Shown: in pieces, positions 5,831 through 49,231 of the stretch | Layout of the letters: every line of letters begins with the position of its first letter | Position numbering within the stretch: position 1 is the stretch's first letter | Assembly: GCF_026210795.1 (NCBI RefSeq) | Contig: NC_089429.1 | Span: 1,364,001 to 1,428,000, forward strand | DNA length: 64,000 bases | Source of the DNA: Rhizophagus irregularis | Lineage: Eukaryota | Direction of reading: 5' to 3' | Position numbers and translations under genes: made by a program | The notes under the pieces: generated by a model | Databases searched by the model: none | What the model was told of the DNA's origin: nothing | What the model saw: the letters and a program-made list of their open reading frames with translations, nothing else

Positions 5831-6643
5831 TAAGTAATTTTTTAAAGAACCATTTTTTTTATTTAGTTAAAAATATTTTTATTATTTTATTTTTTAAATA
5901 TTTATATCAAAAATGTAGATTTTAATAGACTTTACGTTAATTACTCATAAGTCATAATATAAAAAAGTCTAGCCTAACTTTATTTTAATAGTAAATCAAT
6001 AGCCATCTATTATTAAGAAGTCATGAAAAATCTTAATAAACGAACGTTGCTTATTACAGTAATATGCTGCGCCACAACTACAACTTCGTTCAACTTTCAA
6101 TTTATTTGATCCTTTAGTATTCTTTGTTGTATCCCTCCTTAAAATTCTATAGTTTGAACATGCTGTTATATTATAACTGCAAGAAATTATTTAATTTATG
6201 TTTTATTACTTTTGGAATAAATTTAATAATATTATTTATTTATCTAAGCAATTTATATAAAAATTTTAATTTAATTTTCTGGTTTCATTATAATTTTTTT
6301 ACCAACAGTTGAAATTTCCTAATTACTTTAAAGGTTAATTAATTGAATTATACTTCCATTTATTTAATGATTAAATAACTTCTTAGTTGAATCACAATAA
6401 TTCAATCGTAAAAGAATATCACTATCAATAACAGAATGTATTAAAAGATAATAAATAATTGCTGATTAAAAAATCTTATAAAATATTGTAGTTGCTTTTT
6501 GTGTAACAATATTTTTATTTTTGTGATCATCAGCTGATTTAAAATTTGTCGATCACTGCAGTGCAACATATTAAAGGCGTAAATTTTTTTTTTTTTTAAA
6601 AAAAACTATTCATTTTTTACATAAAATTGACCAGTAATCTAAT

Positions 6644-8353
6644 ATGGAAGAATTTAAGCTCAGCGATGATGTATTTGAGCAAATAAAAGATTTTAACCAT
6701 TGGGAATTAACAGATGAACAAAAATTGTTAATTGATAAGTTAATATTAAATGAAGAATTAAAAGAACGTTATAAATGTAATGGTTTGTGCAAAGAATGTA
6801 AACAGCCTAATACTGGTAATGGTTGGTGTAAGTCATGTAATGTTAAGCATTTCCAACAAAATTTCAACAATTGGACTAGTGGAAATAATGAAGTTGATAA
6901 GTTTATTCAAAAAACACAACTCAGAGCTAAACGTTATGAAGAAATTTTAGAGTGGATTGAATATGATAGATTTGAAAATGTTGAATATTTGGCTAAAGGA
7001 GGATTTGGAACTATTTATAAAGCAATTTGGAAAGATGGATATATAGAAGAATGGGATTCTGAAAATAATCAATGGGAGAGAAAAGAATATTGGATCCAAC
7101 ATAAAAATTTTCCTGTTGTTTTAAAATGTTTACATAATTCTCAGAATGTTACATCCGAATTTTTAAGAGAAGTAGGTTACTTATTTGTATATAATTTTCA
7201 AACTACTGTTCCAATATAAATGTTAAACTTACTATTATTTATTATTATTATTATGGATTCTTTTTTAGATTGAATCACATACCATGATTATTTCAGATGG
7301 TGTAACTCGATGTTTTGGCATTACTAAAGATCCAGAATCTAATAATTTCATGATGGTAATAGAATACGCAGAAGAAGGTAGTTTAAGACAATATTTAAAT
7401 AATACATTTAATTCAATAAAGTGGGTAGATAAGTTGAATATTTTACAAAGGATTGCAGCTGGCCTCTTATCCATTCATGAAAAAGAATTAATTCATCGTG
7501 ATTTTCATTGTGGTAATATGTTAAAAGATAATGACTATACTATTATTACTGATTTAGGATTATGCCAACCAGCAAATGTAAAACCTTCTCAAAATGAATA
7601 TGAAAAACAAGTATATGGAGTATTACCTTATGTTGCGCCTGAGGTTTTAAGAGGAAAAGAATATACTCAAGAAAGTGATATTTATGCATTTGGAATTATT
7701 ACATATGAAGTCTGTACAGGGCTTCCTCCTTATCATGATATTGCTCATGATAAAATCTTAGCTATTAGCATTTGTCAAGGGCTTAGGCCAAAATCTGATT
7801 ATAAAATTCCTCAACTAATTTTGAACATAATTAAACAATGTTGGGATGCTGATCCTTCAAAACGACCTAAAGCAAATGAATTATATGATTCATTAGATAA
7901 TTTATATGATAAATTACTTGATGATAGTGATGATAGTGAAATCAAAAAGCAGGTTGAAGAAGCAGAAAGAATTAATGAAAAGATTACTTCTACTTCATTA
8001 CCATATAATGGTACTACTCTTTCATATACTACAAATCCTCAAGCAGTTTACACAAGTAGACTTTTAAACTTTAAAAATCTACCAGAACCAAAAAATGCTA
8101 TTGATAACAAAGATGACAATAATTCAATTGGAGAATATTCAGGTAATTAATGTTCTAGTTTATATTAGAAAAAGTATTCTTGAAATACTTATAATTTACA
8201 ATTATTTTTTTGTTTTCTAGAATCCATAGAAGCAATCGATTTCACTAAACTCAATCTAGGTACTCATTTACATTAACTTGCTTTTTGCATGATAATTTTA
8301 CTAATATTGTTAACAATTTATTTTAATTCATTCTTGTAGATAAAGACAACTAA
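6644..8353 (+). CDS. TKL-type protein kinase with Cys-rich N-terminus; exons 6644-7171, 7269-8142, 8221-8259, 8340-8353
   Basis: GGFGTIY, VVLK, HRDFHCGN, DLG, YVAPE and SDIYAFG motifs; GT-AG introns keep the frame to TAA at 8351-8353. Confidence 0.9.
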
Positions 8354-10040
8354 GAAAGGAAATTTACAAATATTCAGAATATAAATTTCTTTATTCGTAT
8401 ATATTATTTTATTATTTATTTTCTTTATCATTTTTACAGTATGTGTATTTTATTGGATTATATTTGTTATTATTAAAATTTTATAAATAAATTTTTTATA
8501 ATTAAACCATGTTGAACATCGAGTAATACTAATCATAAAATATCACGTCCAAATTCAAGAATTCTAAAGAGGAATACACAAGGAATATTAAAAGAGTTAA
8601 ACTATATGATGTTAAATTTGAAAATGTGACTATAGAATCAAGAAAAATATAAATAATGTAATTTATTACTTCGTTATAATTTTATAGTATACAGTACATA
8701 TAGTGATTCATCCTATTTATTTTTATAATAAAATATAATTGTATTCAAATATTTGAACAATTAGAATTTTTTTAATGATCGATCCAAATGTAGTTATTTT
8801 TCAAACAATGAAAAATTGGCGTAACATAAATATTTATATCTAGATTACCTAACCCGGGTCAAGCAACTGACTTGACGATGAAGTCAGGACTCAAAGCCAT
8901 AGTGCGGGCAAAAATTGTACTGACCAGCATTACTGATCACGTATATTTTAATTTGATCAACCACGTGACTGAAAGGCACATGCCCGTCATTGTAGTATCT
9001 CTTAAATGATAGCTATTGTTCTAAATTCCGCGGAATTTTCAGGATTTCCGCAGAGGATTCCATGGAATTTCATTGTATTACAGTTTAGATCGGCACATGA
9101 GTAGTGGTAAATCGCAGCCAAATTTAGCTGCAAAACACTTTAAGGGATAACATTCACAAGTAAAATTTCATTTGCATATTTTATTAATTTTTATTATACA
9201 GTAAGTATTGATATTGAATAATTTGGACAATTCCATTATAAACGGATTCGTTACATTTCTAATATTACTTTCTATAGATTCTTTATAACATATTTTTACT
9301 TCTATTAAACGCGAAATAATGAATTTTCAAAAAAGATTTTTCTCCATTTCATTAACTTTCATTACCAACTCACTCTAATCAAACCTTCATATAATCTTTG
9401 TGCCTCGTTGAACCAAATAATTTTGTTAATTCTGAAAGACCGCAGTAAGCACGTGACTGTTTTGAATTATCATTCGGTACAAAAAAATACGAAAAATAGT
9501 GGTGAAGGCTTAAACAAATTTATTATTAATTACCTCGCTTTGCTCCGGACAATAAAAAAATTTGAATACCAATTAAAATACTTGTGGCGATATATTTTCA
9601 GTAATTTCGAATATATTTTTAAATTTTTATTTTTATAATTTATATTGATTACAATTTTTATACTACTACTTAGGCAAACTTCAACAATGACCATTATGCA
9701 AGTTATGGTTTAATTTACATCATAAAATGTAATATTGTCATTATTGTTATTGAAACTTTATTTGGTTTCAATTATTTAAATTCTCGCACTGATCTCACAT
9801 ACTGCATACTCGCATCAATCTTTACTATAATTAGATGTGGTCATATGTAATATCATATATATTGTATGCATGGTGCAAAGCATGCAAAGCAAAATGATAT
9901 GCTTACAACATATATGCATCACTCAGCATGACATGAAACATATCAACTAAGCATTATATAATCACTTTTTTTTTTATAAATTGTTAATTTTTTTTTTTCG
10001 TATCAAGTTCCTTAAAAGATACACAAGAAAAAAAAAAAAA

Positions 10041-13000
10041 ATGTCGTTGGCAAATTCATCGGACCGAAATGGTTGGATTACTGATATGTTGTACAAAGAA
10101 CATATTACATTTCACGAATTTCATACTTTTGATAACATAAAATATATCGGGGATGCTGCGGCCAGAGCTTATACAGTTAATTCAAGAATTTATAATAAAC
10201 CCATGCTTATGAAACCTATAATTTTTAATCAATCTTTTACCATTCAAGACTTTGTGAATGAGGTATATGTCACACAATTAATATTATATTATTGTATTTT
10301 TATACGTTTTAAAAAATAAATTTTTTTTTTTTAAAAAAAAAATTATTATTTTTATTATATTATTATTTTTATTTATATTATTTTTTTTTTTTTTAGGTAA
10401 TACAACACCGAAAAGTCGAGTTGCACGATAATATTATACGTTTCTATGGTGTAACTAAAGAAGGTATGCTCTTACTATAATTTATTTAATGTATCAAATA
10501 ATAATGTTTCAAAAAATTTTTTTTTATTTACGACGGATTTTTTAATGGACAAGAAAATATTTGAGAAAAAAAATAATACAACATCCAAATGTATTTATTA
10601 CCTAGATTTTATCTTAAATATTAACCGAAACAATAATAAGCCGATATTAAACACAACCTTGAATTACGTGTTAAAGGAATTACGTGTTAAAGGCGCAGCA
10701 AAATTTAAGAGAGTACTCGATAAAAAATTAATTTTGCAAATTTCAATTATTCAAATTTTATTACGCTCGTTAACGATTAGATCGAGGACAGTATCAATAT
10801 ATGCTACTTCTGGAAGATACTGATGAAGGAACACTTCGTGATTACTTGAAGAAATCGTTTTTACAACTTAAGTGGGACGTTAAATTAAAATTTGCAAAAC
10901 AGCTTGTGAGCGCGGTAAATTGTTTACACGAAAATGATATCGTTCATCAAAATTTAGTAAGTCGATATTTTTTTTTTTATATTATTGATTAATTTTCATA
11001 TTCATTGAACATTACTAACGTAATTATGATTCGAATCCAGAATCCTGAAGATATTCTTATTAAAGGTGGAAATATCAAATTGGGCGGTTTCGGTCTTACC
11101 AAAAAAATAAAAAAGTTAACGAATGCTGTTTCAAGAATTTATGGTGTTTATATTCAATATGCTGACCCAGAATATTTGAAAAATCATCAAGAATTTATTA
11201 GAAATAAAAAATCGGATGTATATAGTGTTGGTGTCTTACTTTGGCAAATTTCAAGTGGAAGAGTTCCATTTGAATTTGAATTACCTGATTTTAGTTTAGT
11301 TCAATTAATAATTGAAGGGAAAAGAGAAATTTCTATTAAAGGAACTCCAAGTAAATATATCGATATTTATACAGGTAAGCAAATAAACTATCGTTAACTA
11401 TTTTTTTTCTTTATTTTATTTTAACATTTTATATATATATTTAGCTTGTTGGGAGGGAAATCTGAAGGATAGACCAAGTATTAAACAAGTTTTAAGAAAC
11501 ATTGACGAGGTAGAAATAACTAAAGACGTAACAAAGGGATTAAATTATTTTTTTAAAAATGATATCTCATCCTCCAGGACAACAACCGGTAACGACAATC
11601 ATGTTGATCATGATTGTTATATTTTAAATAGGAAAAAATCAATTTCTTCAATATTATCAAGTTCTTCATCAACAATATTAGATTTATTAACCATGTATAA
11701 GACGAAATATAAGAATGATGATAATAAATCCTGTATTATTATTGGTTCGAGTAATTCTTCAGCCGTCGATTCTGGTTCAACATTAGTAGAAAATTCCAAC
11801 GAAAAAAATTCTTTAGATGAATTATTATCTAAACCTGGAACAACTTTAGAAATTAAATATACTTTAGAAAATATGAACAAAGATATTAATGAATTAATTT
11901 TACAAAAATTATTATTGGAATTTATTTATCAATTTTATATATCAAATAATAAGGTCATTAATTCAGAATGGTTAAATGAATTTATTAAAAATCATCGTGG
12001 TATTAACGAACATTTATCATCAAAATATTTATTAGAAATGATGTTAAATCATAAAAATCAAAATTATTTTACAAATTTACTTGGTTACTTTTATGAAAAT
12101 GGTATTGGATGTGATAAAATGGATTTTATGAAAGCTTTTGAATATTATTTAAAAGGTTCAGTGGATGATGATTATTATTTTGATATAAAACAAAAATCAT
12201 TTAATTCAAATTTTTATAATATTAATAAATATGATAAAAATTCTTTTATTAGTTTGAAAATTATTCTTATATCTATTGGACAATATTTTTTAGGATTATT
12301 TTATTATAAGGGAATAAATGATAGTATAGAACAAGATTTTGAAAAAGCATTCGAATGGATTTCGAAATCTTCAGAAAATGGAAATCTTGTAGCTCAATGT
12401 ATGCTTGGATACTTTTATGAACATGGAATTGGAACACCTGAAAATGAAACAAAAGCATTTGAATGTTATATAAAATCGGCTGAAGGTGGGAATGCATGTG
12501 GACAATGTAATATTGGATTATGTTATGATAACGGATCATTAGGAATTGTTCAAAATAAATATGAAGCGTTTAATTGGTACTTAAAAGCAGCTGAAGGTGG
12601 CGATTCTTCTGGTCAATATAATCTTGGTTTATGTTATGAAGAAGGAGTTGGTACGATTAAGGATGAAAGTAAGGCTTTTGAATGGTATTTAAAATCTGCT
12701 GAAAACGGAAATGTATCTGGTCAATGTAAAGTTGGAGTATGTTACGAAGAAGGAATTGGTGTTGAGAAAAATGAATATAAAGCGTTTAAATGGTATTTAA
12801 AATCTGCAGAAGGGTATGATATTTTGGGACAATATAATCTTGGATTATGTTATATGAAAGGAATAGGTATCAATAAAGACGAAGAGGAAGCATTTAATTT
12901 ATTTTTAGAATTTGCTAAATCAGGAAATAATCTTGTCCAATCTTGTTTAGGATATTGTTATGAGAATGGAATTGGAACATATAAAGATGAAAGTGAAGCA

Positions 13001-13447
13001 ACTAAATGGTATTTAAAATCTACGGAAGGTGGAGATATTTTAACCAATCATAATCTTAAATTATGTTTTAAAAATATGAAGGATAAAGATCAAGCGTTTA
13101 AATGGTATTTAAAGTTTGCAAACCATGGAAATTCACTTGCTCAATATTATTTAGGAGATTGTTTTGAAAATGGTTTAGGCACGATAAAAAATAATGAGCA
13201 AGCACTTGAATGGTATTTAAAATCTGCTGAAGGAGGTAACGAAGATGGTCAATATAAAGTTGGTTATTATTACCAAAATGGTATTGGTATAATTAAAGAT
13301 GAACAAGAAGCGTTCAAATGGTATTTAGAATCCGCAAAAAATGGAAATTCTAAAGCACAATCTGCTGTTGGAATTTGTTTTATGTATGGTATTGGTATAA
13401 AAAAGAATATTTTTGAAGCAATTATGTGGTTTCAAAAAGCAAAATAA
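10041..13447 (+). CDS. Kinase-like domain plus Sel1-like repeat protein; exons 10041-10262, 10397-10463, 10781-10956, 11041-11374, 11445-13447
   Basis: Spliced frame is open. YADPEY and SDVYSVG kinase motifs, then repeated AQxxLGxCYExGIG...AFxWYLKSAE Sel1 units. Confidence 0.88.
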
Positions 13448-16280: not shown

Positions 16281-19200
16281 ATGGCTCAAAGTAACGATAA
16301 GGAAGATAAAGGTAGGTAAACTTATTCGGAAAATCTAATGATAATATTACAGCTTGTAAATCATAAACATATAACTAGAGTAACTTGGTAATTATTAGTG
16401 AGTTATAATCATTATACTGTCAGATTGACTCGAAAATTTTGGGTCGGGTCATCAAACGTTTTTATAATTAAATATAAAAAAAATTGATTTTTTTATTAAA
16501 AACGTCAGACTTGACGTTTTTGTAATTAAAAAACAAAAAAATGACTTTTTTAGTTAAAAAACGTCAGGCTTGACGTTTTTGTAATTAAAAAATCAAAAAA
16601 ATGACTTTTTTAGTTAAAAAACGTCAGGCTTGACGTTTTTGTAATTAAAAAATCAAAAAAATGACTTTTTTAGTTAAAAAACGTCAGGCTTGACGTTTTT
16701 GTAATTAAAAAATCAAAAAAATGACTTTTTTAGTTAAAAAACGTCAGGCTTGACGTTTTTGTAATTAAAAAATCAAAAAAATGACTTTTTTAGTTAAAAA
16801 ACGTCAGGCTTGACGTTTTTGTAATTAAAAAATCAAAAAAATGACTTTTTTAGTTAAAAAACGTCAGACTTTACATTTTTGTAATTAAAAAATAAAAAAA
16901 AAATGACTTTTTCAGTTAAAAAACGTCAGACTTGACGTTTTTGTAATTAAAAAATCAAAAAAATGACTTTTTTAGTTAAAAAACGTCAGACTTGACGTTT
17001 TTGTAATTAAAAAATCAAAAAAAATGACTTTTTTAGTTAAAAAACGTCAGACTTGACGTTTTTGTAATTAAAAAATCAAAAAAAATGATTTTTTTAGTTA
17101 AAAACGTCAGACATGGCATTTTTGTGATTAAAAATAAAAAAAAATGATTTTTTAATTAAAAACGTCAGATTTGACATTTTTATGATTCAAAAAATTATTT
17201 TTTATGTTAGATTTGACAATTTTGTAATTAAAAATCAAAAAAATTGATTTTTTTAGTTAAAAACGTCAGACTCGACATTTTTGTAATTAAAAAATCAAAA
17301 AAATGATTTTTTTATTAAAAACGTCAGACTTGACGTTTTTGTGATTAAAAATCAAAAAAAATATTGGTTTTTTTTAATTAAAAATGTCAGACTTGATGTT
17401 TTTGTGATTAAAAATCAAAAAAATATTGATTTTTTAATTAAAAACGTCAGACTTGGCAGTTGGCATTTTGTAATTAAAAATCAAAAAAATATTGTTTTTT
17501 TTAATTAAAAACGTCAGCCTTGACGTTTTTGTAATTAAAAAATCAAAAAAATGATTTTTTTGATTAAAAATGTCAGACTTGATGTTTTTGTAATTAAAAA
17601 ATCAAAAAAAAATGATTTTTTTGATTAAAAACGTTATACTTGACGTTATTGTAATTAAAAAATCAAAAAAAATGATTTTTTTGATTAAAAACATCAGACT
17701 TGACGTTTTTGTTATTAAAAAATCAAAAAAATGATTTTTTTAATTAAAAAACGTCAGACTTGACATTTTTGTGATTAAAAAATAAAAATTAAAAAAATAT
17801 TGGTTTTTGTTTAATTAAAAACGTCAGACTTGACATTTTTGTGATTAGAAATCAAAAAAATATTGGTTTTTTTTAATTAAAAACGTCAGTCTTGACATTT
17901 TTTGTTAAAAAAATAAAAAATGAAGAAAAAATAAAAAATGAAGAAAAAACGTTTTTGCGTTATTTTATTTATAATTTTATATGGAAAAATGCCAAAACGT
18001 TTTTTTCTTAATAGTAATGCAAAAAAAAAAGTTTTTGGCATTTTTTTTAATAATATTATATGAAAAAACGCTGAAACATTTTTTTTACAATTTTTTTATT
18101 TTTTTGCAATATTTTATGAAATTTTAATGATCAACAAAAAAATGAAATTATGCAAATATTGAATGATGCAACAATTTAACAGGGACTTTTAGTGGCACAG
18201 GAAGAGTTTTTGCGAAAAGTTGGCATTAGAAGTTTTTTTCATTGACATTGACATTGACATTGACATTGACATTGTCACTGACATTGACATTGTCATTGAC
18301 ATTTTTTTAAAGTTATATAAGATTAATCTGAGAGTTTTTTACCAAAAAGGAAATTTTTTTATAAAAAGGGAAATGATTTTCAATTTCGAGGCAATTCAGC
18401 AGGTGTTTTAATAACAAATTGAGAAATGATTTCCATAGAAAATCTCGTGACAAAATTTATAATAAATTTAAAATAAATGATCAACAAATGATCAACAAAA
18501 TCGTTACTAGTTTTATAAAAAACGCCCAATAATATCTTTTTATTGTTTTAAATTTTAGAATTTTAAATAACTGTATTTATAAAAATTATTTAACTATTTT
18601 AGCTCGTAAGTTATAGGTTATTTGTAGTTTGAATAATAGTTGAATACTTAATCCTATTATATTTTATGTAACCAAATAATTTATTTTATTATTAATGATA
18701 TTATAGTTGGTAAGATAGTTATTTATTTCTATTATATTTTATAAATAACTAATTTTTTTCATTAATATAATTGTTTAATAATTATTGATGTTATAGAAGG
18801 CAAGTATTAATTTTATTTTAATTTAAAATATTTACATATAATTTAAATTAATAATTTTATTTAAATAATTAGATTGTAAGTTACTGCATACATTTAATTT
18901 TCATATACAATTATAGTATTTTATCTAATTAATCAATTTATTATAATTACTTTACTTAAAAATTATTAATGCTACAGGGTGTAAGTTATATGTTATTTAT
19001 TAATTCTGTTATATTTATAATATTTACACAATTTAAACTAACTAAATTATTTATTTAAAAATTACCCAAATATTTTTTTAGTTGGTAAGTTATACATTAT
19101 TTATTAATTTTATTATATTTGTATAATATTTATATAAACTAACTAAATTCTTTATTTAAAAATTTATTCAAATATTTTTTTTTTTAGTTGGTAAGTTATA

Positions 19201-22200
19201 CATTATTTATTTAATTCTATTATATTATATAATATTTATTTGAACTACTAACTAAATTCTTTATTTAAAAAATTAATTATTTAATAATATAGAGAGTAAG
19301 TTTTTATTATATTTATATAATATTTACATATGATTTAAACTAATTAAATTCTTTATTTTCAAATATTTTATTTTAGTTGGTAAGTTATACATTATTTATT
19401 TAAATCTATCATATTATATAATATTTACATGCAATTTGAACTAAATTTTTTATTTACAAAATTAATTATTTAATAATACAGAGAGTAAGTTATTTATTTA
19501 ATTCTATTATATTTATATAATATTTACATATAATTTATACTAACTAAATTCTTTATTTAAAAATTATTAGATTGTAAGTAATTTATTATGTTTATATAAT
19601 ATTTACATATAATTTAAACTAATTAAATTTATTTTAAAAAATTATTCAAATATTTTAGATCGTAAGTAGTAATTTATTATATTTATGTAATATTTACATA
19701 TAATTTAAACTGATTAAATTCTTTATTTAAAAAATTATTCAAATATTTTAGATCGTAAGTATTTTATTATATTTATATAATATTTACATATAATTTAAAC
19801 TAACTAAATTCTTTATTTAAAAAATTATTTATTTAATAATATAGGGAGTAAGTTATTTATTTAATTCTATTATATTTATATAGTAATATTTACAAATAAT
19901 TTAAACTAAATAAATTTTTATTTAAAAAATTATTAAAATATTTTAGATTGTAAGTAATATTATATTTATGTAATACTTATATATAATTTAAACTAATTAT
20001 ATTCTTTATTTAAAAAATTATATAGGGAGTAAGTTATTTATTTAATTCTATTATATTTATGTAATATTTACATATAATTTAAACTAACTAAATACTTTAT
20101 TTAAAAATATTTAGATCGTAAGTAATTTATTATATTTGTATAATATTTACATATAATTTAAACTAACTAAATTCTTTATTTAAAAAATTATTCAAATATA
20201 TTAGATCGTAAGTAATTTATTATATTTTGTAATATTTACATATACTAATTTAAACTAACTAAATTCTTTATTTAAAAAATTATTCAAATATATTAGATCG
20301 TAAGTAATTTATCATATTTATATAATATTTACATACAATTTGAACTAACTAAATTCTTTATTTAAAAAAATTATTCAATTTTAGTTTGTAAGTTATACAT
20401 TATTTATTATATTTATATAATATTTACATATAATTTAAACTGATTAAATTCTTTATTTCAAATATTTTAGATCGTAAGTAGTTTACTATATTTATATAAT
20501 ATTTACATATAATATATAATTTAAACTAATTAAATTCTTTATTTGAAAAATTATATTTCTTTAGTTGGTAAGTTATACATTATTTATTTAATTCTATTAT
20601 ATTTACATTTAATTTAACTAACTTTTAAAAATCAATCAAATATTCTAGATTGTAAGTAATTTATTATATTTGTTTTAATAATAATATTTACATATAATTT
20701 AAACTAATTTTAAAAAATTATTTATTTAATAATATAGGGAGTAAGTTATTTATTTAATTGTATTATATTTGTATAATATTTACATATAATTTAAACTAAC
20801 TAAATTCTTTATTTAAAAATTATTCAAATATTATAGATTGTAAGTAATTTATCTTATTTATATAATATTTATGTATAATTTAAACTAACTAAATTCTTTG
20901 TTTAAAAAATCTATTCAAATATTTTTTTTAGTTGGTAAGCTATACATTATTTATTTAATTCTATTATATTTATATAATATTTACATATAATTTAAATTAA
21001 CTAAATTCTTTGTTAAAAAAATTATTCAAATTTTTTTTTTAGCTAGTAAGTTATACATTATTTATTTAATTCTATTATATTTGTATAATATTTACATATA
21101 ATTTAAACTAACTTCTTTGTTTAAAAAATTATTTACTTAATAATATAGGGAGTAAGTTATTTATTTAATTCTATTATATTTATATAATAGAATTTTTCTA
21201 ACTATCACTGGGGTGATGATTACCCCAGTGATTTGAAGTAAAAAACTATATAATATTTACATATAATTTAAACTAACTAAATTCTTTATTTAAAAATCAT
21301 TCAAATATTGTAGATTGTAAGTAATTTATTATATTTATATCAATAATAATATTTACATATAATTTAAACTAACTAAATTCTTTATTTAAAAATAATAATA
21401 TAGGGAGTAAGTTATTTATTTAATTCTATTATATTAATTGCAATTAATTTAAACTAAAATAAATTATTTATTTCAAATATTTTTTTTTTAGTTGGTAAGT
21501 TATATATTATTTATTTAATTCTATTATATTAATTGCAATTAATTTAAACTAAAATAAATTATTTATTTCAAATATTTTTTTTTTAGTTGGTAAGTTATAT
21601 ATTATTTATTTAATTCTATTATATTTATATAATATTTACATATAATTCAAAACTAACTAAATTCTTTATTTAAAAAATTATTCAAATATTTTAGATCGTA
21701 AGTAATTTATTATATTTATATAATATTTACATATAATTTAAACTAATAAATTCTTTATTTAAAAAATTCTTTATTTAATAATATAGGGGGTTAGTAATTC
21801 TATTATATTTATATAATATTTGTATATGATTTAAACTAATTAAATTCTTTATTTCAAATATTTTAGATCGTGAGTAATTTATTACATTTATATAATATTT
21901 ACATAATAATTTAAACTAACTAAATTCTTTATTTACTAAAATATTTTAGCTTGTAAGTATATATTAAATTTTTTAATTGCATTTAATTTATTATAATTAT
22001 ATAATTTTACTTATAATTTAATTAAATCTTCTTAAAAAATTTTGTTAAACTATCTTAGTTGGTAAGTTATCAGTTATTATATGTTATTTATATAAGAATT
22101 AAAATCAATTATTTATTGTATTAAAATTTTATAATTTTATTTAGAGTAAGTATAATTAATATTATTCAATATTAAATTTTTAATTATTTTAAATTTTAAT

Positions 22201-25200
22201 TTAATTTCATTTTTTTGTATTTAAAGATTTGGTACTAGTGGAAGTAAAATTGTGGATCAATTTATTTCTGAAAATAAATTAAAATGGATTCCTTATAATA
22301 AATTTAAAAACATTGAATATCTTAATAAAGGAGGATTTGGTACTATATATAAAGCTATATGTAAGATTGAAGATAAAGATTATGAAGTAATCCTTAAACA
22401 TTTTGACTATCTTAATAATTCAGATGAAAGTTTAAAAGAATTTTTAAATGAAGTATGAATAAATAATATTTTTTTTTAATTTAATTATAATTTATTTATA
22501 CTTATTTGCTAAATATTATTTTTTATAGTGGCAAATAATTGATTCAAATAAAATTATTAAGATTTATGGATTTACAAAAAACCAAATACTTTGAATATAT
22601 ATGGATTTACAAAAAATCCAGATATTTTGAATTATGTATTAATAATGGAATATACAAATAAGGGTAATTTAAGAGGATGCCTAACAGAAATAGCAAATAA
22701 TTGGGAAAAAAAATTATTTTATTTGTATATTATTATTGTTGGTCTCAATGATATTCATGAAAAAGGTCTTATTCATTATAACTTTCATGATGGTAATATT
22801 TTATGTAACAAATATAAAGAAAATATATATGGAATTTATATTAGTGATTATTTAGGATTATATCAACTTGCAAAATTGTTTTTAAAAGAAAATAATATTT
22901 ATTGTATTATACCATTTATGGCACCTGAAATTTTAAGTGGTCAACCTTATACTCAAACAAGTGATATATATAGTTTTTCTATGATTATGTGGGAATTTAC
23001 ATCTGGAATTCCACCATTTAATGATAAAGCACATAATCTTCAACTTGCTTTAAGTATTTGTAAAGGTAAACGTCCTAAAATTATTGAAAATACTCCACAA
23101 TGTTATGTGGATTTGATGAAAAAATGTTGGGATGAAGATCCATTAAAAAGACCATCTACATTACAGGTTTTAAATATTATTAAAAGTTGGATATTCCGTT
23201 CTGGAAATATCAATGAAGAATCAAAAAGCAATATTACGGAATTTATAAATGCACCAATTGAGCATAATAACCATATTGTAGAATCTCATCCACAAGCATG
23301 CTATACAAGTCATTTACTTGATTTTACTAGTAAAGAATTAAATAAAATTCTAGAGGAATTTCAAGAATTGGAATCACTTAAATTGAAACAAAAAGTTGGG
23401 GATGCTGAGCAGAAACTTCTTAAATTAGAAAAAATTGCAGAAACTTATTATCAAAGTTCTCTAAATGAGTTAAAAGAAAATCGATTAGCATATCAGAATA
23501 TGCAAATGGAATTAGCTAATTTCATTACAACAGAGGAATTCAAAATTTGAACAAGATAATCAAAGTTTAAACTATAATTTAACTGTACAAAATAAAGAAT
23601 TTGCAGAAAAAAAAAATACCTTACAAACCCAAATTATTTATTTGCAAAATGAAAAGCAAGCTTTAGCTAACAATTTAACTGAACAGTTAAAACAAATCAG
23701 TCAATTAAATCAAGAAAAAAACAATCTGCAAAATGAGTTAGCTCAATCAAAAGTTAACATTCAAGAATTACAGTCTCAGCAAGATCAATTTAAAAATAAA
23801 TTAATTCAATCTCAAATTGATCATAAACAAATAGAAGAAAAAAATCTTAAGCTAGAAAATGAGTTAGTTAAGTTACAACAAGGAAATTCTCAATTTGAGA
23901 AAGATAACCAAAATTTGAGACTTGACTTGGCTGTACAACTTAAAATATCTGCAGAAAAAGAAAATACTTTACAACCCCAAATTACTTACCTGCAAAATGA
24001 AAGACAAGCTTTGGCTGAGGATTTAACTGAACAATTGGATCAAAATAAACTTGCTAGCCATCAAGTTCAAAATCAAATTGACCAGTTAATGCAAGATAAA
24101 AATTGTTTGGAAGAAAAATTAACTCAAACAGAAGATAATATTCAAAAATTAGAATCTAAACTAAGTCAATCTCAGGCTAATTATGAAAAGTTGTGCAATA
24201 GGTTAGATGGCCTATCACAAGATTACAAGGTTACTATTAAATTGAAAGCCAAGTCAGAAAAAGAAAAAGTTGAGTTGGAAAAAGAAAAAGCTGAGTTGGA
24301 AAAAGAAAAAGCTGAGTTGGAAAAAGAAAAAGCTGAGTTGGAAAAAGAAAAAGCTAAGTTGGAAAATGAAAAGGCTAAGGTAGAAAAAGAAAAAGCTGAG
24401 TTGAAAAAAGAAATTGCACAATTGGAACAAAAATTATATATTGAAGAACAAATCAAAATGCAATTAACCCAAGCTTTTGAGATGAAAGAAGTTAAAATAA
24501 GTGAATTTGAACAAAAATTGATTAATCTTAATTATGAGCGTATTAAAAAGTTAAAAGACAAAGAAAAAGAATTGACCAAAATTAAAGAGAAGTTAGTAAG
24601 TAAATTGACTAGTGGAGAAGATACTAAGGAAATTCATAAAGAAAAAAAAGCTAAACAAAAAGTGATAGATGAACTTCAACAAGAATTATTAACAACTTCA
24701 GCTTCTTATTATGCTAATAGGAAAAAACAGATTCTCAATCAAGTTAATAATTTTCTAAAGGCCAAGGGTAATTTTCTAACTTTACGGGAAGAAGCTATTG
24801 AAAAACTGCAAGATTGTTTTAATCAATTAGAAAGTTCTATTAATGAAGTAAGAAATACTATTGGTTCTACCAGAGATATGAAAATCTCTACATTGACTGA
24901 TAAATATACTAATAAATTTCAAAGTATTCTCATAAAATATAATGATGAAGTATTACAGCTAAACAAAAATTATTATTCCTTAAAGTATGTTGTTCAAAAA
25001 AATAAAGAATTGGATGTTAGCCTCACAATTGAAAATATTCTTAAGTTGAATAATTTCAATCTTGATAAATACAAAATTTTTAAAATTGCTACTAATTCTA
25101 AGGAAGGAACTGTAACCCAATTAAGTTCTAATATGATGGCAGAAGATATAAATACATTAAGAAGAAATTTGGATGAATTGAAATTAGAATTAAAGCAAGA

Positions 25201-25234
25201 AGAAAAAGAATTAAAAAATTTAGCAGCAGAATAA
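16281..25234 (+). CDS. Micro-exon-rich kinase-like plus long coiled-coil gene (two frameshifts: pseudogene or sequencing error)
   Basis: Exon 1 16281-16311 (MAQSNDKEDK+G, phase 1), 38 micro-exons 18603-22145, exon 22227-22452 (FGTSGSKIVDQFI...GGFGTIYKA), exon 22529-25234 (kinase then coiled coil). Frameshifts near 22580 and 23521. Confidence 0.7.
16490..17905. repeat. 60-bp tandem repeat, about 23 copies, with palindromic core
   Basis: Identical 60-nt lines at 16621-16860; each unit has AAAAACGTCA-G(G/A)CT-TGACGTTTTT; copies degenerate toward the right. Confidence 0.95.
18140..18550. repeat. Dispersed repeat, second copy at 42548-43718
   Basis: Shared tgcaaatattgaatgat...gcacaggaagagtttttgcg...(cattga)n...aataatatctttttattgtttta. 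Confidence 0.85.
18603..22145 (+). other. Array of 37 three-nt micro-exons and one 1-nt exon
   Basis: Every ~90-110 bp: branch point (often aactaac), YAG, exactly 3 nt, then GTAAGT-type donor (one GCAAGT, one GTGAGT, one GTTAGT). Confidence 0.85.
24257..24403 (+). repeat. 21-bp coding tandem repeat (EKEKAEL heptad, about 7 copies)
   Basis: gaaaaagaaaaagctgagttg repeated within the coiled-coil ORF. Confidence 0.9.
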
Positions 25235-41655: not shown

Positions 41656-42672
41656 TAAAAAAAATTTGTAACTTAGTACTATCATGTAAAAATGTAAATA
41701 ACTCCAAAAATATTCACTGTGCTTTCATGTAGATTAATATCTTAACAGCTTCAAACTTGCTGAACTACTTTTAATTAAAGAGCAAGATTTACTTTGGCCA
41801 AAATGCTCAAACCATAATTTGAAATATGTGTAAACAAACTATAATATTTGTTTATATTTAAATTCTGAGTTATTTAATTTAAATATGTTTGTGTTTATAT
41901 TTAAGGAAAAAAAATAAAATTTTACTTCTATTTTATTAGGTTTTTGTAAATGAAAAGACAAAAAAATAATCAGCTGAAAAAATAAAAAAATTCTTTGTTA
42001 ATAACCGTAATACATGATCATATGTTGCAATATTAAAATCGGAAATCCTATATTTAAATTGGTAATACGTATTACATATATGACCGATAGGCCAAATTAT
42101 ATTTCCTGCTATTACAATTGTAAAATAATATTAAAATTATGAATAAATTAAAAGTTTTTCTAATTTGAAAAATGCAAATCTTTCTGAATTACTCAAATTT
42201 TCAAATCTGTTTATTATAGTATAATCAATAATTAATTTTCACTGCAAAATCTCCTAGGAATGGATAAATAAATACATATAAAATTTACTACCCAGTAAGG
42301 TTTTTTTGGATGGTTCTAACCTCTACTTATTATTTATTTTATTTATTTTATTTTTTTTATAGAGAGAAATTGTCATAATATATGTATTATTTTAAAATTA
42401 ACATTTTAAAAATTAAATTGAAAAACTATAATTTATTAATTAACAATAAAATGTTTTTTGTTAAAATTATTTAAAAATTTTTTAAATTATAGTGAAAATG
42501 CTACAACAGTAAATAATATTATAATAACGAAATTGATCAGCAAACAAATGAAAACATGCAAATATTGAATGATGTCTCAATTTAACAGGTATTTTCAATA
42601 GCACAGGAAGAGTTTTTGCGAAAAGTTGGCATTAGAAGTTTTTTTCATTGTCATTGTCATTGTCATTGACAT

Positions 42673-43436
42673 TATCACAGAATATTTTTTCTTATTTTTA
42701 TTTTTTATTTTTATTGTTTTCATTTTATTTATTTCTATTTTTATCTTTTAATTATTTTTAGTTATTTTTAGATAGATTACTTGTAGTTGATTTTGGTTGT
42801 TTATAGATTAGATAAAAAGCGGAAGCTTAGCGATGTAAAATGGCTGAATATAAGTAGCTGTATAGACAAATGTGCCCAGATCGCCACAATTGGCCGGAAG
42901 GCGATTATGGTAAAATGACAGTTCTGGACGAAAGGACAGAATCGTATTAATATTTTGACGTTATAAAAAGGGTTGGTGTTGGAAGGAATTTTAGTTTAGT
43001 TCAGTTTGATATCATAAAGTTTTATTGTTATAAGATAGATATCAGGATATTACAGAGCGCCAGTTGAGGCAGTAATATCGTATTCTTTTTATTAATGAAT
43101 AAACTTGTCGATTTGCTTCCGAATTATTGATACATATTTTATTACGTTGTTTATTATCATTTTATTATCATTTATTAACAATTATTAATTTTCGCTATAC
43201 ATCGTTGATTTACTATATACACTTATAACTAATTGTTATCATAAACATACTATCCGATTTACTCCTAATCCATTATATCATTTATTATTGCCTATAATCG
43301 TTCATTATCGACTATTCATATATACACATTTACTTTACCGATTGTTATATATCGCCATATTACCTTACCACTCACATACTGATCCTTATTTTTCTTTCTG
43401 TTACTACCTACCAAACGTTATAAATCGGTGGTAACA
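42673..43436 (+). mobile_element. Probable solo LTR
   Basis: Insertion relative to the empty site at ~18270; termini tatcac (TG>TA) ... gtaaca; 4-bp TSD acat; TATAAAA at ~42962 and AATAAA at ~43098. Confidence 0.7.
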
Positions 43437-44186
43437 ACATTATCACTGACATTGACATTGTCATTGTCATTTACATAAAGTTATATAAGATTAATTTGAG
43501 AGTTTTTTACCAAAAAGGAAATTTTTTTATAAAAAGAGAAATGATTTTCAATTTCGAGGCAATTCAGCAGGTGTTTTAATAACAAATTGAGAAATGATTT
43601 CCATAGAAAATCTCGTGACAAAATTTATAATATATTTAAAAATAAATGATCAACAAATGATCAACAAAATTGTTACTAGTTTTATAAAAAACGCCTAATA
43701 ATATCTTTTTATTGTTTTAACTTACAAAATTTATATAAATATTTGCTAATTTTTTGTATAAATACAATTTTAATTGCAAATTACATGTTTTAATAAAATA
43801 ATATTTTAAATATTTACAATATTTAACAAATTTTATAATTTGACTAATTTTTAAAAGTTGTTTATAGTAAAAATACTTCAATAATTATTTAATTTTAATA
43901 AAATTTAAAGTATAATCTAAGGTTGCTTGGCGAAACTTGGAAGTTTAGACAAGTGTTGAAATCAAAACTAGTTTAAACATTTTGTTAAAAAGTAAAAAAA
44001 TTGCGAAACTGCGAAACTGCGAAAAGTTTAGACATATTTTTATATAGTAATTTAATGAAGTTTCGCCATTTACTATAGTAAATCATATGAATTAGTATAT
44101 TATGTATATCTTTTCCTATAAAAGTTAGAATACATTTATCTGAATTTACCGAATTGCAGAAAAACATTTGATCTGATTTTCGTGTA

Positions 44187-47100
44187 CAGTCAACTCCCTC
44201 TATAGTCACTCCCGTTATAGTCACATTCTACTATATAGTCACACCAGTTGAATGTTCAAAACACTTTATTATTAAAATCTATCCTATATAGTCACAATCT
44301 ATCTATAGTCACTATCACACCTATCCTCAAAAATCTTATATTAAAAAGAACTGTTTATAATCACAGTTATATAAAGAATATATTAAATAACTTGGCATCT
44401 AATAATCGTACAAAGTTGTATCATAGCTTGTTAGAATCGTCTCACTGAGACGAATCGAATAGTGGTAGTTTTATCCTTTCCTTTGCTAGTGTTTACGGCC
44501 AGACCACCCATTGCCTCTTATGAGACTAATCTCGGATCTGTGTTCTATCATCTTCACTGGGCAACCATTATACCGAGTACTTAATTCCTCAGGTAACAGC
44601 ACCACTATAGAAGACATCCCCCATCGGGCCATTTTAGGCTGATCTGAAGCTAGGTACACGCCGCCTACTCATCCTATATCCATTGCATGATACTGATACT
44701 CAATTTATTTTACGACCTTTAGAGAGCATCTACTTTCATGGAGGACTTTTGACAGGTAACATCAACCATCTAATACTCTTCCATACCACCATTTTAAGTA
44801 CTAAGTCTCACTCAAAGGCCACTACAGCCCGCGATTACCTAGCACCGATAGTACAGTTGTTTACCCCAATTGGTATACTTTGTAGTGACCACTCGGACAG
44901 GAAGTAGCAGGCTTCTGTTCAGGATCATCCCTTATGGTGGGTATCAACCACCAGGGATCACCAACCAGGACCCAAGAAGTGGGGAATCGAACCCCATAAC
45001 CATGCTATCTGTTCTGTGCACAAACACCTTTGGCTTATTCCTAAGACCTAACAGAAGGTCAAACTACCACTAAGACATTGCACCCTCAGCTTTACCATCT
45101 AGGATGATCATCTAGCCATTACTGATCCCAAGTGGTATCGTGGAGTGACCACCTGAACAGGAAGTCCCCCCAAGGTATAGTAGTGACCTCAAGGACAGGA
45201 CTGCGCACATACCAATGGCCTCATAGGGAACGTTAGAAGGACACCATGACCCTTAATTGAAATGTGCGGCCTAACCGTACACACTAATTCACCATGATGC
45301 AGTCCAACTACACTAATCCCTGTACCTTCACGCTATTGGTTGTAGCGTCTGCAGTAAAATTCTTTTTATTTCCGTGGTCATGGGAATCGAACCTGCGACC
45401 TCACCATACTCAGGCTTAATGAGGGTCTCAGTGACTAACCACCGAGATAGGGTGACCAACCCTAGTTTTATCCTTTTCCTTTGCTAATGTTTACGGCCAG
45501 ACCACCCATTGCCTCTTATGGAGACTAATCTCGGGTCTGTGTCCTATCATAGTTTTATCCTTTTCCTTTGCTAATGTTTACGGCCAGACCACCCATTGCC
45601 TCTTATGAGACTAATCTCGGGTCTGTGTCCTATCATCTTCAATGGGCAACCATTATACCGAGTACTTAATTCCTCAGGTAACAGCACCACTATAGAAGAC
45701 ATCCCCCATCGGGCCATTATAGGCTGATCTGAAGCTAGGTACACGCCGCCTACTCATCCTATACCCATTGCATGATACTGATACTCAATTTATTTAACGA
45801 CCTTTAGAGAGCATCTACTTTCATGGAGGACTTTTGACAGGTAACATCAACCATCTAGTACCCTTCCATACCACCATTTTAGGTACTAAGTCTCACTCAA
45901 AGGCCACTACAGCCCGCGATTACCTAGCACCGATAGTACAGTTGTTTACCCAAGTGGTATACTTTGTAGTGACCACTCGGACAGGAAGTAGCAGGCTTCT
46001 GTCCAGGATCACCCCTATGGTGGGTATCAACCACCAGGGATCACCAACCAGGACCCAAGAAGTGGGGAATCGAACCCCATAACCATGCTACCTGTTCTGT
46101 GCACGAACACCTTGGTTGGTCTAAGACCTAATAGAAGGTCAAACTACCACTAAGACATTGCACCCTCAGCTTTACCATCTAGGACAACCATCTAGCCATT
46201 ACTGACCCCAAGTGAGGTATCGTGGAGCGGACCACCTGGGAACAGGAAGCCACCCCCTCAAGCATAGTGAGTAGCGACCGCGAAGGACAGGGACTACGCA
46301 TACCAATGGCCTCATAGGGAACGTTAGAAGGACACCATGACCCTTAGTTGAAATGTGCGGCCTAACCGTACACACTAATTCACCATGATGCAGTCCAACT
46401 ACACTAATCCCTGTACCTTCACGCTATTGGTTGTAGCGTCCGCAGTAAAATTCTTTTTATTTCCGTGGTCATGGGAATCGAACCTGCGACCTCACCATAC
46501 TCAGGCTTAATGAGGGTCTCAGTGACTAACCACCGAGATAGGGTGACCAACCCTAGTGTTTTATCCTTTTCCTTTGCTAATGTTTACGGCCAGACCACCC
46601 ATTGCCTCTTATGAGACTAATCTCGGGTCTGTGTCCTATCATCTTCAATGGGCAACCATTATACCGAGTACTTAATTCCGCAGGTAACAGCACCACTATA
46701 GAAGACATCCCCCATCGGGCCATTATAGACTGATCTGAAGCTAGGTACACGCCGCCTACTCATCCTTAATCCATTGCATGATACTGGTACTCAATTTATT
46801 TTACGACCTTTAGAGAGCACCTACTTTCATGGAGGACTTTCGACAGGTAACATCAACCATCTAGTACCCTTCCATACCACCATTTTAGGTACGAGGTCTC
46901 ACTCAAAGGCCACTACAGCCTGCGATTACCTAGCACTGATAGTACAGTTGTTTACCCCAAGTGGTATACTTATGTAGTGACCACTCGGACAGGAAGTAGC
47001 AGGCTTCTGTCCAGGATCACCCCTTATGGTGGGTATCAACCACCAGGGATCACCAACCAGGACCCTCAAGAAGTGGGGAATCGAACCCCATAACCATGCT

Positions 47101-49231
47101 ACCTGTTCTGTGCACGAACACCTTGGTTGGTCTAAGACCTAACAGAAGGTCAAACTACCACTAAGACATTGCACCCTCAGCTTTACCATCTAGGACAACC
47201 ATCTAGCCATTACTGACCCCAAGTGGTATCGTGGAGTGACCACCTGAACAGGAAGTCCCCCCCAGGTATAGTAGTGACCTCAAGGACAGGACTGCGCACA
47301 TACCAATGGCCTCGCCAGGGAACGTTAGAAGGACACCATGACCCTTGTTGAAATGTGCGGCCTAACCGTACACACTAATTCACCATGATGCAGTCCAACT
47401 ACACTAATCCCCGTACCTTCACGCTATTGGTTGTAGCGTCCGCAGTAAAATTCTTTTTTATTTCCGTGGTCATGGGAATCGAACCTGCGACCTCACCATA
47501 CTCAGGCTTAATGAGGGTCTCAGTGACTAACCACCGAGATAGGGTGACCAACCCTGTTTTATCCTTTTCCTTTGCTAATGTTTACGGCCAGACCACCCAT
47601 TGCCTCTTATGAGACTAATCTCGGGTCTGTGTCCTATCATCTTCAATGGGCAACCATTATACCGAGTACTTAATTCCTCAGATAACAGCACCACTATAGA
47701 AGACATCCCCCATCGGGCCATTATAGGCTGATCTGAAGCTAGGTACACGCCGCCTACTCATCCTATACCCATTGCATGATACTGATACTCAATTTATTTA
47801 ACGACCTTTAGAGAGCATCTACTTTCATGGAGGACTTTCGACAGGTAACATCAACCATCTAGTGCCCTTCCATACCACCATTTTAGGTACTAAGTCTCAC
47901 TCCAAAGGCCACTACAGCCCGCGATTACCTAGCACCGATAGTACAGTTGTTTACCCCAAGTGGTATACTTTGTAGCGACCACTCGGACAGGAAGTAGCAG
48001 GCTTCTGTCCAGAATCACCCCTTATGGTGGGTATCAACCACCAGGGATCACCAACCAGGATCCAAGAAGTGGGGAATCGAACCCCATAACCATGCTACCT
48101 GTTCTGTGCACGAACACCTTGGTTGGTCTAAGACCTAACAGAAGGTCAAACTACCACTAAGACATTGCACCCTCAGCTTTACCATCTAGGACGACCATCT
48201 AGCCATTACTGACCCCAAGTGGTATCGTGGAGTGACCACCTGAACAGGAAGTCCCCCCCAAGGTATAGTAGTGACCTCAAGGACAGGACTGCGCACATAC
48301 CAATGGCCTCATAGGGAACGTTAGAAGGACACCATGACCCTTAGTTGAAATGTGCGGCCTAACCGTACACACTAATTCACCATGATGCAGTCCAACTACA
48401 CTAATCCCTGTACCTTCACGCTATTGGTTGTAGCGTCCGCAGTAAAATTCTTTTTATTTCCGTGGTCATGGGAATCGAACCTGCGACCTCACCATACTCA
48501 GGCTTAATGAGGGTCTCAGTAACTAACCACCGAGATAGGGTGACCAACCCTTGTTTTATCCTTTTCCGATCACTGGCTGACGAGTTATTCAACAAAATGT
48601 TAAACATCGGCATTATAATATTTCTTGATTTACGTTTACTGCGCCATTTAACATTTTGCTAGATTTCTCAGTACCTAGTGATTGTAAAAAGACGATTTAT
48701 AGCTCGTTGGAATCGCCTCATCGAGACGAATCGAATGGTGGTAAGCTCATCTCTCTGTGATCAATATTGACGGAGTTATTACTTAAAAACCATTTAAATT
48801 TTTTAATTTCGGAAATTGATCTAGTGATTGGATTTCGATGTATTTTATACCATTAGATTCGTCGCATCAAGACGAATCAAATGGTAGTAAGATCGTCTCT
48901 TTAGGATCAATATTAGCAGAGTTATTACACAAAAACCATTAATATTTTTTTAATTTCGGAAATTAATCTAGTGATTGGATTTCGACGTATTTTATACCAT
49001 TAGAACCGTCTCATCAAGACGAATCGAATGGCAGTAAGATCATCTCTCTACGATTAATATTGGCGAAGTTACGATACAATAAAGTTTTAAGTATAATTCT
49101 GGCTAAAATTATGTTAATTTTTGGCCGGAATTATGATATACAAATATAAGAAATTTTTTATATAGTCACATCTCTTTATAATCACCAAATATGGACTGTC
49201 CCAAATGTGTGACTATAAAGAGAGTTGACTG
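44187..49231. mobile_element. Non-autonomous Tc1/mariner(pogo)-type element nested in the hAT
   Basis: 23-bp TIRs cagtcaactccctctatagtcac / gtgactataaagagagttgactg; TA TSD. Confidence 0.88.
44482..48550 (-). mobile_element. Tandem stack of four ~1-kb tRNA-headed SINE-like elements plus one 71-bp truncated copy
   Basis: GC-richer near-identical units separated by ttttatccttttcc; the minus-strand 5' head contains the GGTTCGATTCC B-box. Confidence 0.75.

What the first reader, a model, noticed from the sequence alone, without database searches (positions are those of the whole stretch)
18603..22145. Phase-1 triplets could generate combinatorial or hypervariable peptide diversity
Seen: each codon is the last base of one exon plus the first two of the next, so a small triplet alphabet (ATC, ATT, TTG, GGA, AGA) yields many residues (N, H, Y, D, W, R, L, F, V, I, E). 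Skipping any exon keeps the frame but removes one residue and can rewrite a neighbour; only a few joins (T+AGA, T+A+A) create stops. Recent unit duplications are visible (the TTG units at 21492 and 21587; the ATC units at 20115, 20205, 20297). Inference: exon skipping or unequal crossover could diversify a recognition segment on a signalling protein, conceptually like schistosome micro-exon genes but at single-codon resolution.
Basis: inference. Interest (0 to 1): 0.85.

Follow-up and report, generated by a model that had tools for sequence, protein, structure and literature searches.

The report
Codon-splitting micro-exon array on fungal kinases
In a root-symbiont fungus, 37 three-base exons and one single-base exon sit in front of a kinase-type gene, transcripts of related genes carry the matching spliced junction, and swapping of these tiny exon cassettes in the DNA likely builds a variable, possibly partner-recognising, protein end, although this particular copy is broken.

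Summary
The array is real: 37 three-base exons and one 1-base exon between 73-162-nt introns, in front of a Rhizophagus irregularis kinase-family gene. Phase 1 is right. It is the only frame that joins the kinase; polyA reads of paralogues break off exactly at the kinase exon and continue with the predicted last units (9 of 10 bases); related loci start that exon in phase 1. Arrays precede related kinases in 8 of 45 fetched loci. The core is three exon-centred cassette types in scrambled order, joined through a shared intron core, which points to DNA-level shuffling. Exon skipping, isolate differences and a recognition role are untested. This copy is likely dead: two frameshifts, and 4 of 7,903 laid reads at 99% identity or more. 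The closest precedent is the 3-bp mini-exon array of Tuber NACHT-ANK genes; my searches found nothing for Glomeromycota. This scan noted similar one-codon arrays before in other genomes (HET, kinase-HET, protist receptors), none in look-alike DNA. Verdict: new variant of a known kind.

The parts
16281..16311 (+). candidate first coding exon (MAQSNDKEDK plus one base, phase-1 donor)
   Evidence: N-termini of gene models P0079 (MALSNDKG) and P0109 (MAHSNNKV) resemble it; not confirmed by RNA; a phase-2 donor 4 nt further on is also possible
16456..17902 (.). 60-bp AT-rich tandem repeat inside the presumed first intron
18128..18569 (.). dispersed repeat ending 33 nt before the first micro-exon; copies at 42534-42673 (89%) and 43437-43741 (94%)
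18603..18980 (+). five older edge units (CTC, TTG, AAG with GC donor, ATT, GGT); nearest-neighbour flank distance 0.19-0.27
19082..21869 (+). core of 30 three-base exons in three cassette types (ATY 13, TTG-type 9, RGA-type 8) joined by a shared intron core with a CTAAC-type branch motif
21950..22061 (+). two edge units CTT and TTG, matched by paralogue RNA
22145..22145 (+). 1-nt exon A that converts phase 1 to the phase 2 of the kinase exon; also in L001, L002, L003
22227..22452 (+). first kinase exon (FGTSG...FLNE)
22529..25234 (+). second exon: rest of the kinase fold (HYN in place of HRD), coiled coil and C-terminal helical bundle
22565..22634 (+). 35-nt tandem duplication: frameshift, stop about 21 codons into the exon
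23516..23550 (+). second frameshift; allele P0214 reads through here, models P0265 and P0267 step round it with an intron

Best explanation
The array is a chain of complete short introns separated by 3-base exons that would splice in phase 1 into a roughly 38-residue variable N-terminal segment of a Rhizophagus kinase-family protein, and its sequence is likely diversified mainly in the DNA, by crossover or conversion between exon-centred cassettes, to vary a segment that likely binds a partner. Shown: the anatomy; the frame; the spliced junction in paralogue RNA; arrays before related kinases; the cassette order. Inferred: each intron is removed on its own (intron definition, established for short fungal introns, recalled); the near-identical intron middles give the homology for exchange, so one residue can be added, lost or swapped without a frameshift, and because codons straddle exons each change also rewrites a neighbour; point changes at the last exon base (C/T in front of GT, a CpG site) add more. 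The segment takes the place of the CxxC...CxxC domain of intron-free relatives and is Trp-rich, which fits a binding surface. This copy is likely a recent pseudogene; intact family members would carry the function.
For: 30 exact motifs against 0.32 expected; AG and G of the donor in 37 of 37 introns, CTRAY in 28 of 38. Loose ends at 22227 in 162 and 180 polyA reads; their consensus matches the spliced prediction at 9 of the last 10 bases and the intron at 3 of 10, and reads S-F-E-F-G against P-F-E-F-G here. Micro-exons before the kinase exon in 8 of 45 loci (L009 and L010 look like one gene), 29 units in L007, 16 in L009; that exon is open only in phase 1 in L004-L007 and L009, and in phase 2 behind a 1-nt exon in L001 and L002. 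Acceptor-side and donor-side class agree across the exon in 29 of 30 core units (MI 1.38 bits, p 5e-5) but not across the intron (MI 0.15, p 0.29). Within classes diversity is 0.25-0.51 at exon base 3, 0 at base 2 (the wobble position), 0.11-0.12 in flanks. Trp is 8 of 75 array-coded residues against 5 of 275 in the kinase.
Against: The RNA is from paralogues whose genes I did not see: 1 of 3,742 and 3 of 4,161 laid reads are 99% alike or more; only the last 30 letters were given, as a consensus. Classes were set by eye; the class-free check is weak (r 0.137, p 0.011 across exons; r 0.08, p 0.094 across introns). The diversity contrast rests on about six changes and the units are not independent. 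L007 has a phase-1 stop (1 of 28 joins; 42 of 406 possible joins) and L009 a 2-nt unit, so both are broken or need skipping. In four gene models (P0045, P0051, P0079, P0109) an acidic 8-residue repeat fills the same place, which suggests a tolerant spacer. No allele of the array from a second isolate was obtained.
Confidence: 0.6

Rival explanations
1. Combinatorial exon skipping is the main generator: one gene gives many isoforms, as reported for Tuber nank genes.
For: Triplet skips keep the frame; only 4 of 666 joins stop here. Loose ends agree only 0.60-0.62. A stop in L007 and a 2-nt unit in L009 could be removed by skipping. Precedent: PMC4986451, PMC9815663.
Against: Splice sites are uniformly strong (donor positions 0.95-1.00 conserved), as expected for constitutive splicing. 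Low agreement is also what a paralogue mixture gives. In L007 10% of joins are stops. No isoform was seen.
Confidence: 0.25
2. The array is a spliced but functionally tolerant spacer: an intron-plus-triplet unit expands by slippage and survives because it keeps the frame; its sequence does not matter.
For: Copy in the window is frameshifted yet the array is tidy. Stop-free order is common by chance (41.6%). Acidic repeats fill the position in other models. T at the wobble base fits AT bias; ATC/ATT fits CpG decay (inference).
Against: The layout is kept in two kinase subfamilies only 42-57% alike in the first exon, with different intron cores. Variation sits at non-synonymous positions. Trp enrichment. 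About 38 introns per transcript is a cost.
Confidence: 0.12
3. The triplets are read in phase 0 as a hydrophobic, membrane-spanning run (Leu, Ile, Gly).
For: Phase 0 is open and hydrophobic, and third-base changes are mostly synonymous in it.
Against: It is out of frame with the kinase; paralogue RNA holds the extra A that fixes phase 1; L007 has two TGA units in phase 0.
Confidence: 0.02
4. The array is an unspliced satellite that only looks like introns.
For: Tandem Repeats Finder calls it a 91-bp repeat; bacterial repeats match a three-unit pattern too, 40 of 43 hits.
Against: Splice signals are the most conserved columns; it always abuts a kinase exon on the coding strand; RNA shows the junction.
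Confidence: 0.01

Closest known systems
3-bp mini-exons of the Tuber melanosporum NACHT-ANK (nank) genes (Iotti et al. 2012; seen only through passages in PMC4986451, PMC9815663, PMC13449251, PMC10197012)
   Same: Fungal, expanded gene family, dozens of 3-base exons in a row, proposed to diversify a signalling protein.
   Different: Here: Glomeromycota, a kinase or pseudokinase without NACHT or ankyrin domains, N-terminal position, codons split across exons, a 1-nt adaptor exon, and evidence for DNA-level cassette exchange; alternative splicing, reported for Tuber, is not shown. The phase in Tuber is unknown to me.
Schistosoma micro-exon genes (MEGs; passages of PMC4350168, abstract start of 10.1101/2023.06.21.545858)
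   Same: Runs of very small symmetrical exons that allow in-frame loss.
   Different: MEGs are secreted, mostly made of micro-exons, with long introns; here 112 coding bases in front of a cytoplasmic kinase fold, no signal peptide, introns of about 90 nt that are copies of each other.
High-internal-conservation repeat arrays of Podospora NLRs (passages of PMC9815663, PMC13449251)
   Same: Near-identical units reshuffled by unequal crossing-over, with variation focused on few coding positions.
   Different: There the conserved unit is coding (WD, TPR, ANK); here it is the intron, and the coding part is three bases.

Membership tests
Tuber nank mini-exon genes | dozens of 3-bp exons in tandem | tested here: met
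   37 triplets
Tuber nank mini-exon genes | NACHT-ankyrin (NLR) architecture | tested here: not met
   Pfam on the three window ORFs gives kinase families only above cut-off
Tuber nank mini-exon genes | alternative splicing of the mini-exons | not testable with these tools
   only a 30-letter consensus of paralogue reads was returned
Tuber nank mini-exon genes | diversified part is the C-terminal sensor domain | tested here: not met
   array lies 5' of the kinase exon; the Tuber position is taken from PMC9815663
Schistosome MEGs | very small symmetrical exons | tested here: met
   37 of 38 units are 3 nt, phase 1-1
Schistosome MEGs | most of the coding region is micro-exons | tested here: not met
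   112 nt against about 2.9 kb of kinase and coiled-coil exons
Schistosome MEGs | signal peptide, secreted or membrane-anchored product | tested here: not met
   crude test only: best 9-residue hydropathy 0.43 with the candidate first exon; first exon unconfirmed
Podospora-type HIC repeat arrays | near-identical units reshuffled by crossover | tested here: inconclusive
   cassette order fits, but no second allele was compared
Podospora-type HIC repeat arrays | repeat unit is a coding structural repeat | tested here: not met
   the repeated part is intron
Active protein kinase (PF07714/PF00069) | kinase fold sequence above Pfam cut-off | tested here: met
   94.8 bits against 23.1
Active protein kinase (PF07714/PF00069) | catalytic-loop Asp (HRD) | tested here: not met
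   HYN here; 12 of 13 relatives with the same C-terminal domain and a readable loop lack the Asp

The most novel reading that the evidence does not exclude
Arbuscular mycorrhizal fungi carry an overlooked repertoire of intracellular kinase and pseudokinase receptors whose N-terminal sensing segment is written one residue per exon in split codons and diversified both by cassette recombination between nuclei or paralogues and by exon skipping: an antibody-loop-like system for self/non-self or endobacterial recognition, invisible in current gene models.
Probability: 0.22. Interest if true: 0.9.

Novelty: new variant of a known kind. Interest (0 to 1): 0.66.

Why it matters
R. irregularis has 2,533 kinases (PMC10234402) with no explained purpose. 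A subfamily of them appears to lack its true N-terminus in public models: among the 66 closest hits the sequence before the first kinase exon differs from model to model or is absent. If that N-terminus is a micro-exon-coded variable segment, the models are wrong in a systematic way, and these fungi have a diversity generator comparable to fungal NLR repeats. It can be tested with existing long-read genomes and RNA. Thirty-eight introns three bases apart, ending in a 1-base exon, is also an extreme case for splicing mechanics.

Tried and rejected
No whole genome was held, so paralogues in the same assembly were not counted. No RNA holder was listed for this stretch. Reads were laid on the kinase exons only; the array and the candidate first exon were not covered, so isoforms and the 5' end stay open. 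Contig runs X7 and X2 listed no loose end at 22227 among the rows shown (667 rows not shown). No transcript-derived protein with the spliced N-terminus turned up among 68 hits or the best 150 of 420 representatives. Phase-0 membrane-helix reading: considered first, rejected. Viral contigs: one hit, a 42-bp coding repeat. C-terminal domain: no Atlas hit; confident model (pLDDT 88) but no Foldseek match at E 0.001 and best VIA Z 12.2 to designed helical bundles: uninformative, no effector fold claimed. The kinase control was out of frame and was redone; only one search is used. An early count of 38 triplets and a 34-nt duplication were corrected to 37 and 35. Iotti 2012 and DeMarco 2010 are not held.

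Full report
Observation. Between 18603 and 22145 lie 38 units of acceptor, tiny exon and donor: 37 of three bases and a last one of a single A, with introns of 73-162 nt. The exact motif TAG-NNN-GTAAGT occurs 30 times, all here, against 0.32 expected. Over 37 introns the donor positions are 0.95-1.00 conserved and AG 1.00; 28 of 38 introns hold a CTRAY branch motif, mostly 31-53 nt from the end. One donor is GC (18797).

Host gene. The next exon (22227-22452) starts a protein kinase whose named relatives are Rhizophagus proteins. Public R. irregularis proteins are 100% identical to the downstream ORFs (P0265), which names the organism. The protein continues with a coiled coil and a helical bundle of no informative fold match. 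The catalytic loop reads HYN; 12 of 13 relatives with this C-terminus lack the Asp, so this subfamily is likely pseudokinase. A candidate first exon at 16281-16311 ends in phase 1 and resembles the starts of models P0079 and P0109; a satellite and a dispersed repeat lie between it and the array.

Frame. Joined in order, the units are open and in frame with the kinase only when each codon is the last base of one exon plus the first two of the next; the 1-base exon bridges to the phase-2 kinase exon. Phase 2 has stops. Phase 0 is open and hydrophobic, which I first took seriously, but it misses the kinase frame. Two polyA runs (a quarter of each read, 80% likeness) gave 162 and 180 reads that stop matching exactly at 22227; the consensus of their loose ends matches the spliced prediction at 9 of the last 10 bases and the intron at 3 of 10, and falls into triplets of the same alphabet. 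These are paralogue reads: 1 of 3,742 and 3 of 4,161 are 99% alike or more. The evidence is therefore for the family, and for the last three or four units only; I did not see the genes these reads came from. Agreement of 0.60-0.62 shows that the segment differs among reads but cannot separate paralogues from isoforms.

Family. L001 aligns to the window's units at 79% over 266 columns; L007 and L009 at 66%. Relatives without arrays (L008, L011, L012, L014, L016-L019, L021, L023) carry an unbroken CxxC...CxxC domain at this place. The remaining loci are distant kinases or lack upstream DNA. Against a clean picture: L007 has one phase-1 stop in 28 joins and L009 one 2-nt unit; both also have inserts in an intron.

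How it changes. The 30 core units fall into three cassette types centred on the exon. Acceptor-side and donor-side type agree across the exon in 29 of 30 units (p 5e-5) and are unrelated across the intron (p 0.29); the intron middles are shared. That is the pattern left by crossover or conversion in the middles. I set the types by eye; a distance test without types points the same way but weakly. The first five and last two triplets are more diverged, as at the edges of a turning-over array. Within types, exon base 2 (the wobble base) never varies, base 3 has diversity 0.25-0.51, flanks 0.11-0.12; this rests on about six changes. ATT units mostly have ATC nearest neighbours (4 of 5 in the core), which fits repeated C-to-T change at the CpG formed with the donor (inference; CpG methylation in this fungus is recalled). 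Trp is 8 of 75 array-coded residues in three arrays against 5 of 275 in the kinase (units not independent).

State of this copy. A 35-nt duplication at 22565-22634 stops the frame about 21 codons into exon 2. A second frameshift lies near 23520; two public models step round it and a 98% allele (P0214) reads through, so it is a real lesion and polymorphic. The near absence of exact reads fits silence, decay of the message or a different strain.

Comparison. Reviews describe dozens of alternatively spliced 3-bp mini-exons in Tuber melanosporum NACHT-ANK genes (passages read: PMC4986451, PMC13449251, PMC9815663, PMC10197012); the primary paper was not held. MEG features come from passages of PMC4350168 and one abstract start. 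This locus works like the Tuber array in layout and like Podospora repeat arrays in its turnover, and belongs to neither family. Searches for micro-exons with Rhizophagus, mycorrhiza or Glomeromycota listed no report of it; passages of the long-read annotation paper (PMC10234402) do not mention it; its supplements and subscription journals were not searched. PMC11121469 (passages) calls fungal micro-exon work limited. Earlier notes of this scan describe one-codon arrays in other genomes; none came up by sequence or place. They gave the Tuber lead and are not counted as support.

Verdict. Real, family-wide, spliced in phase 1 in relatives (about 0.9), reshuffled in DNA (about 0.8), a recognition surface (about 0.45), diversified mainly by skipping (about 0.25); these odds are my judgement. 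New variant of a known kind; interest 0.66.

Noticed in passing
L065 1-1215 (+), L071 580-1880 (+), L087 (- strand, first 1100 nt): Three contigs filed in one 'Mycoplasma' genome bin (GC 0.18-0.20) hold arrays of at least 23-31 highly variable 3-base exons between introns of about 30 nt; phase 0 is nearly open and rich in D, E, W, Y, R, C; L065 has a RING-like Cys/His pattern downstream. Likely DNA of an unidentified microbial eukaryote and an independent parallel. Table 6 gave no clear ORF.
   Followed up: partly
window 21152-21313: One intron is 162 nt because of an insert of about 66 nt with a perfect inverted repeat (hairpin, MITE-like).
   Followed up: no
L007 1470-1735; L009 1428-1653 and L010: Inserts in array introns; the one in L009/L010 has terminal inverted repeats.
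   Followed up: no
P0045, P0051, P0079, P0109: Gene models in which an acidic 8-residue repeat of variable number fills the place between first exon and kinase exon.
   Followed up: no
window 24257-24413: 21-bp coding repeat in the coiled coil; allele P0214 is 7 residues shorter over this ORF, so copy number likely varies.
   Followed up: partly
window 6638-8150 and 9951-13447: Two more kinase genes: one with the intron-free CxxC N-terminus and an HRD loop, one followed by 108-bp Sel1-like repeats (the Sel1 label is recalled).
   Followed up: no
window 16456-17902 and 18128-18569: 60-bp satellite and a dispersed repeat with copies at 42534 and 43437 sit between the candidate first exon and the array.
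   Followed up: partly
window 44600-48700: GC-rich (0.37-0.48) stretch with long internal repeats in a 24% GC window.
   Followed up: no
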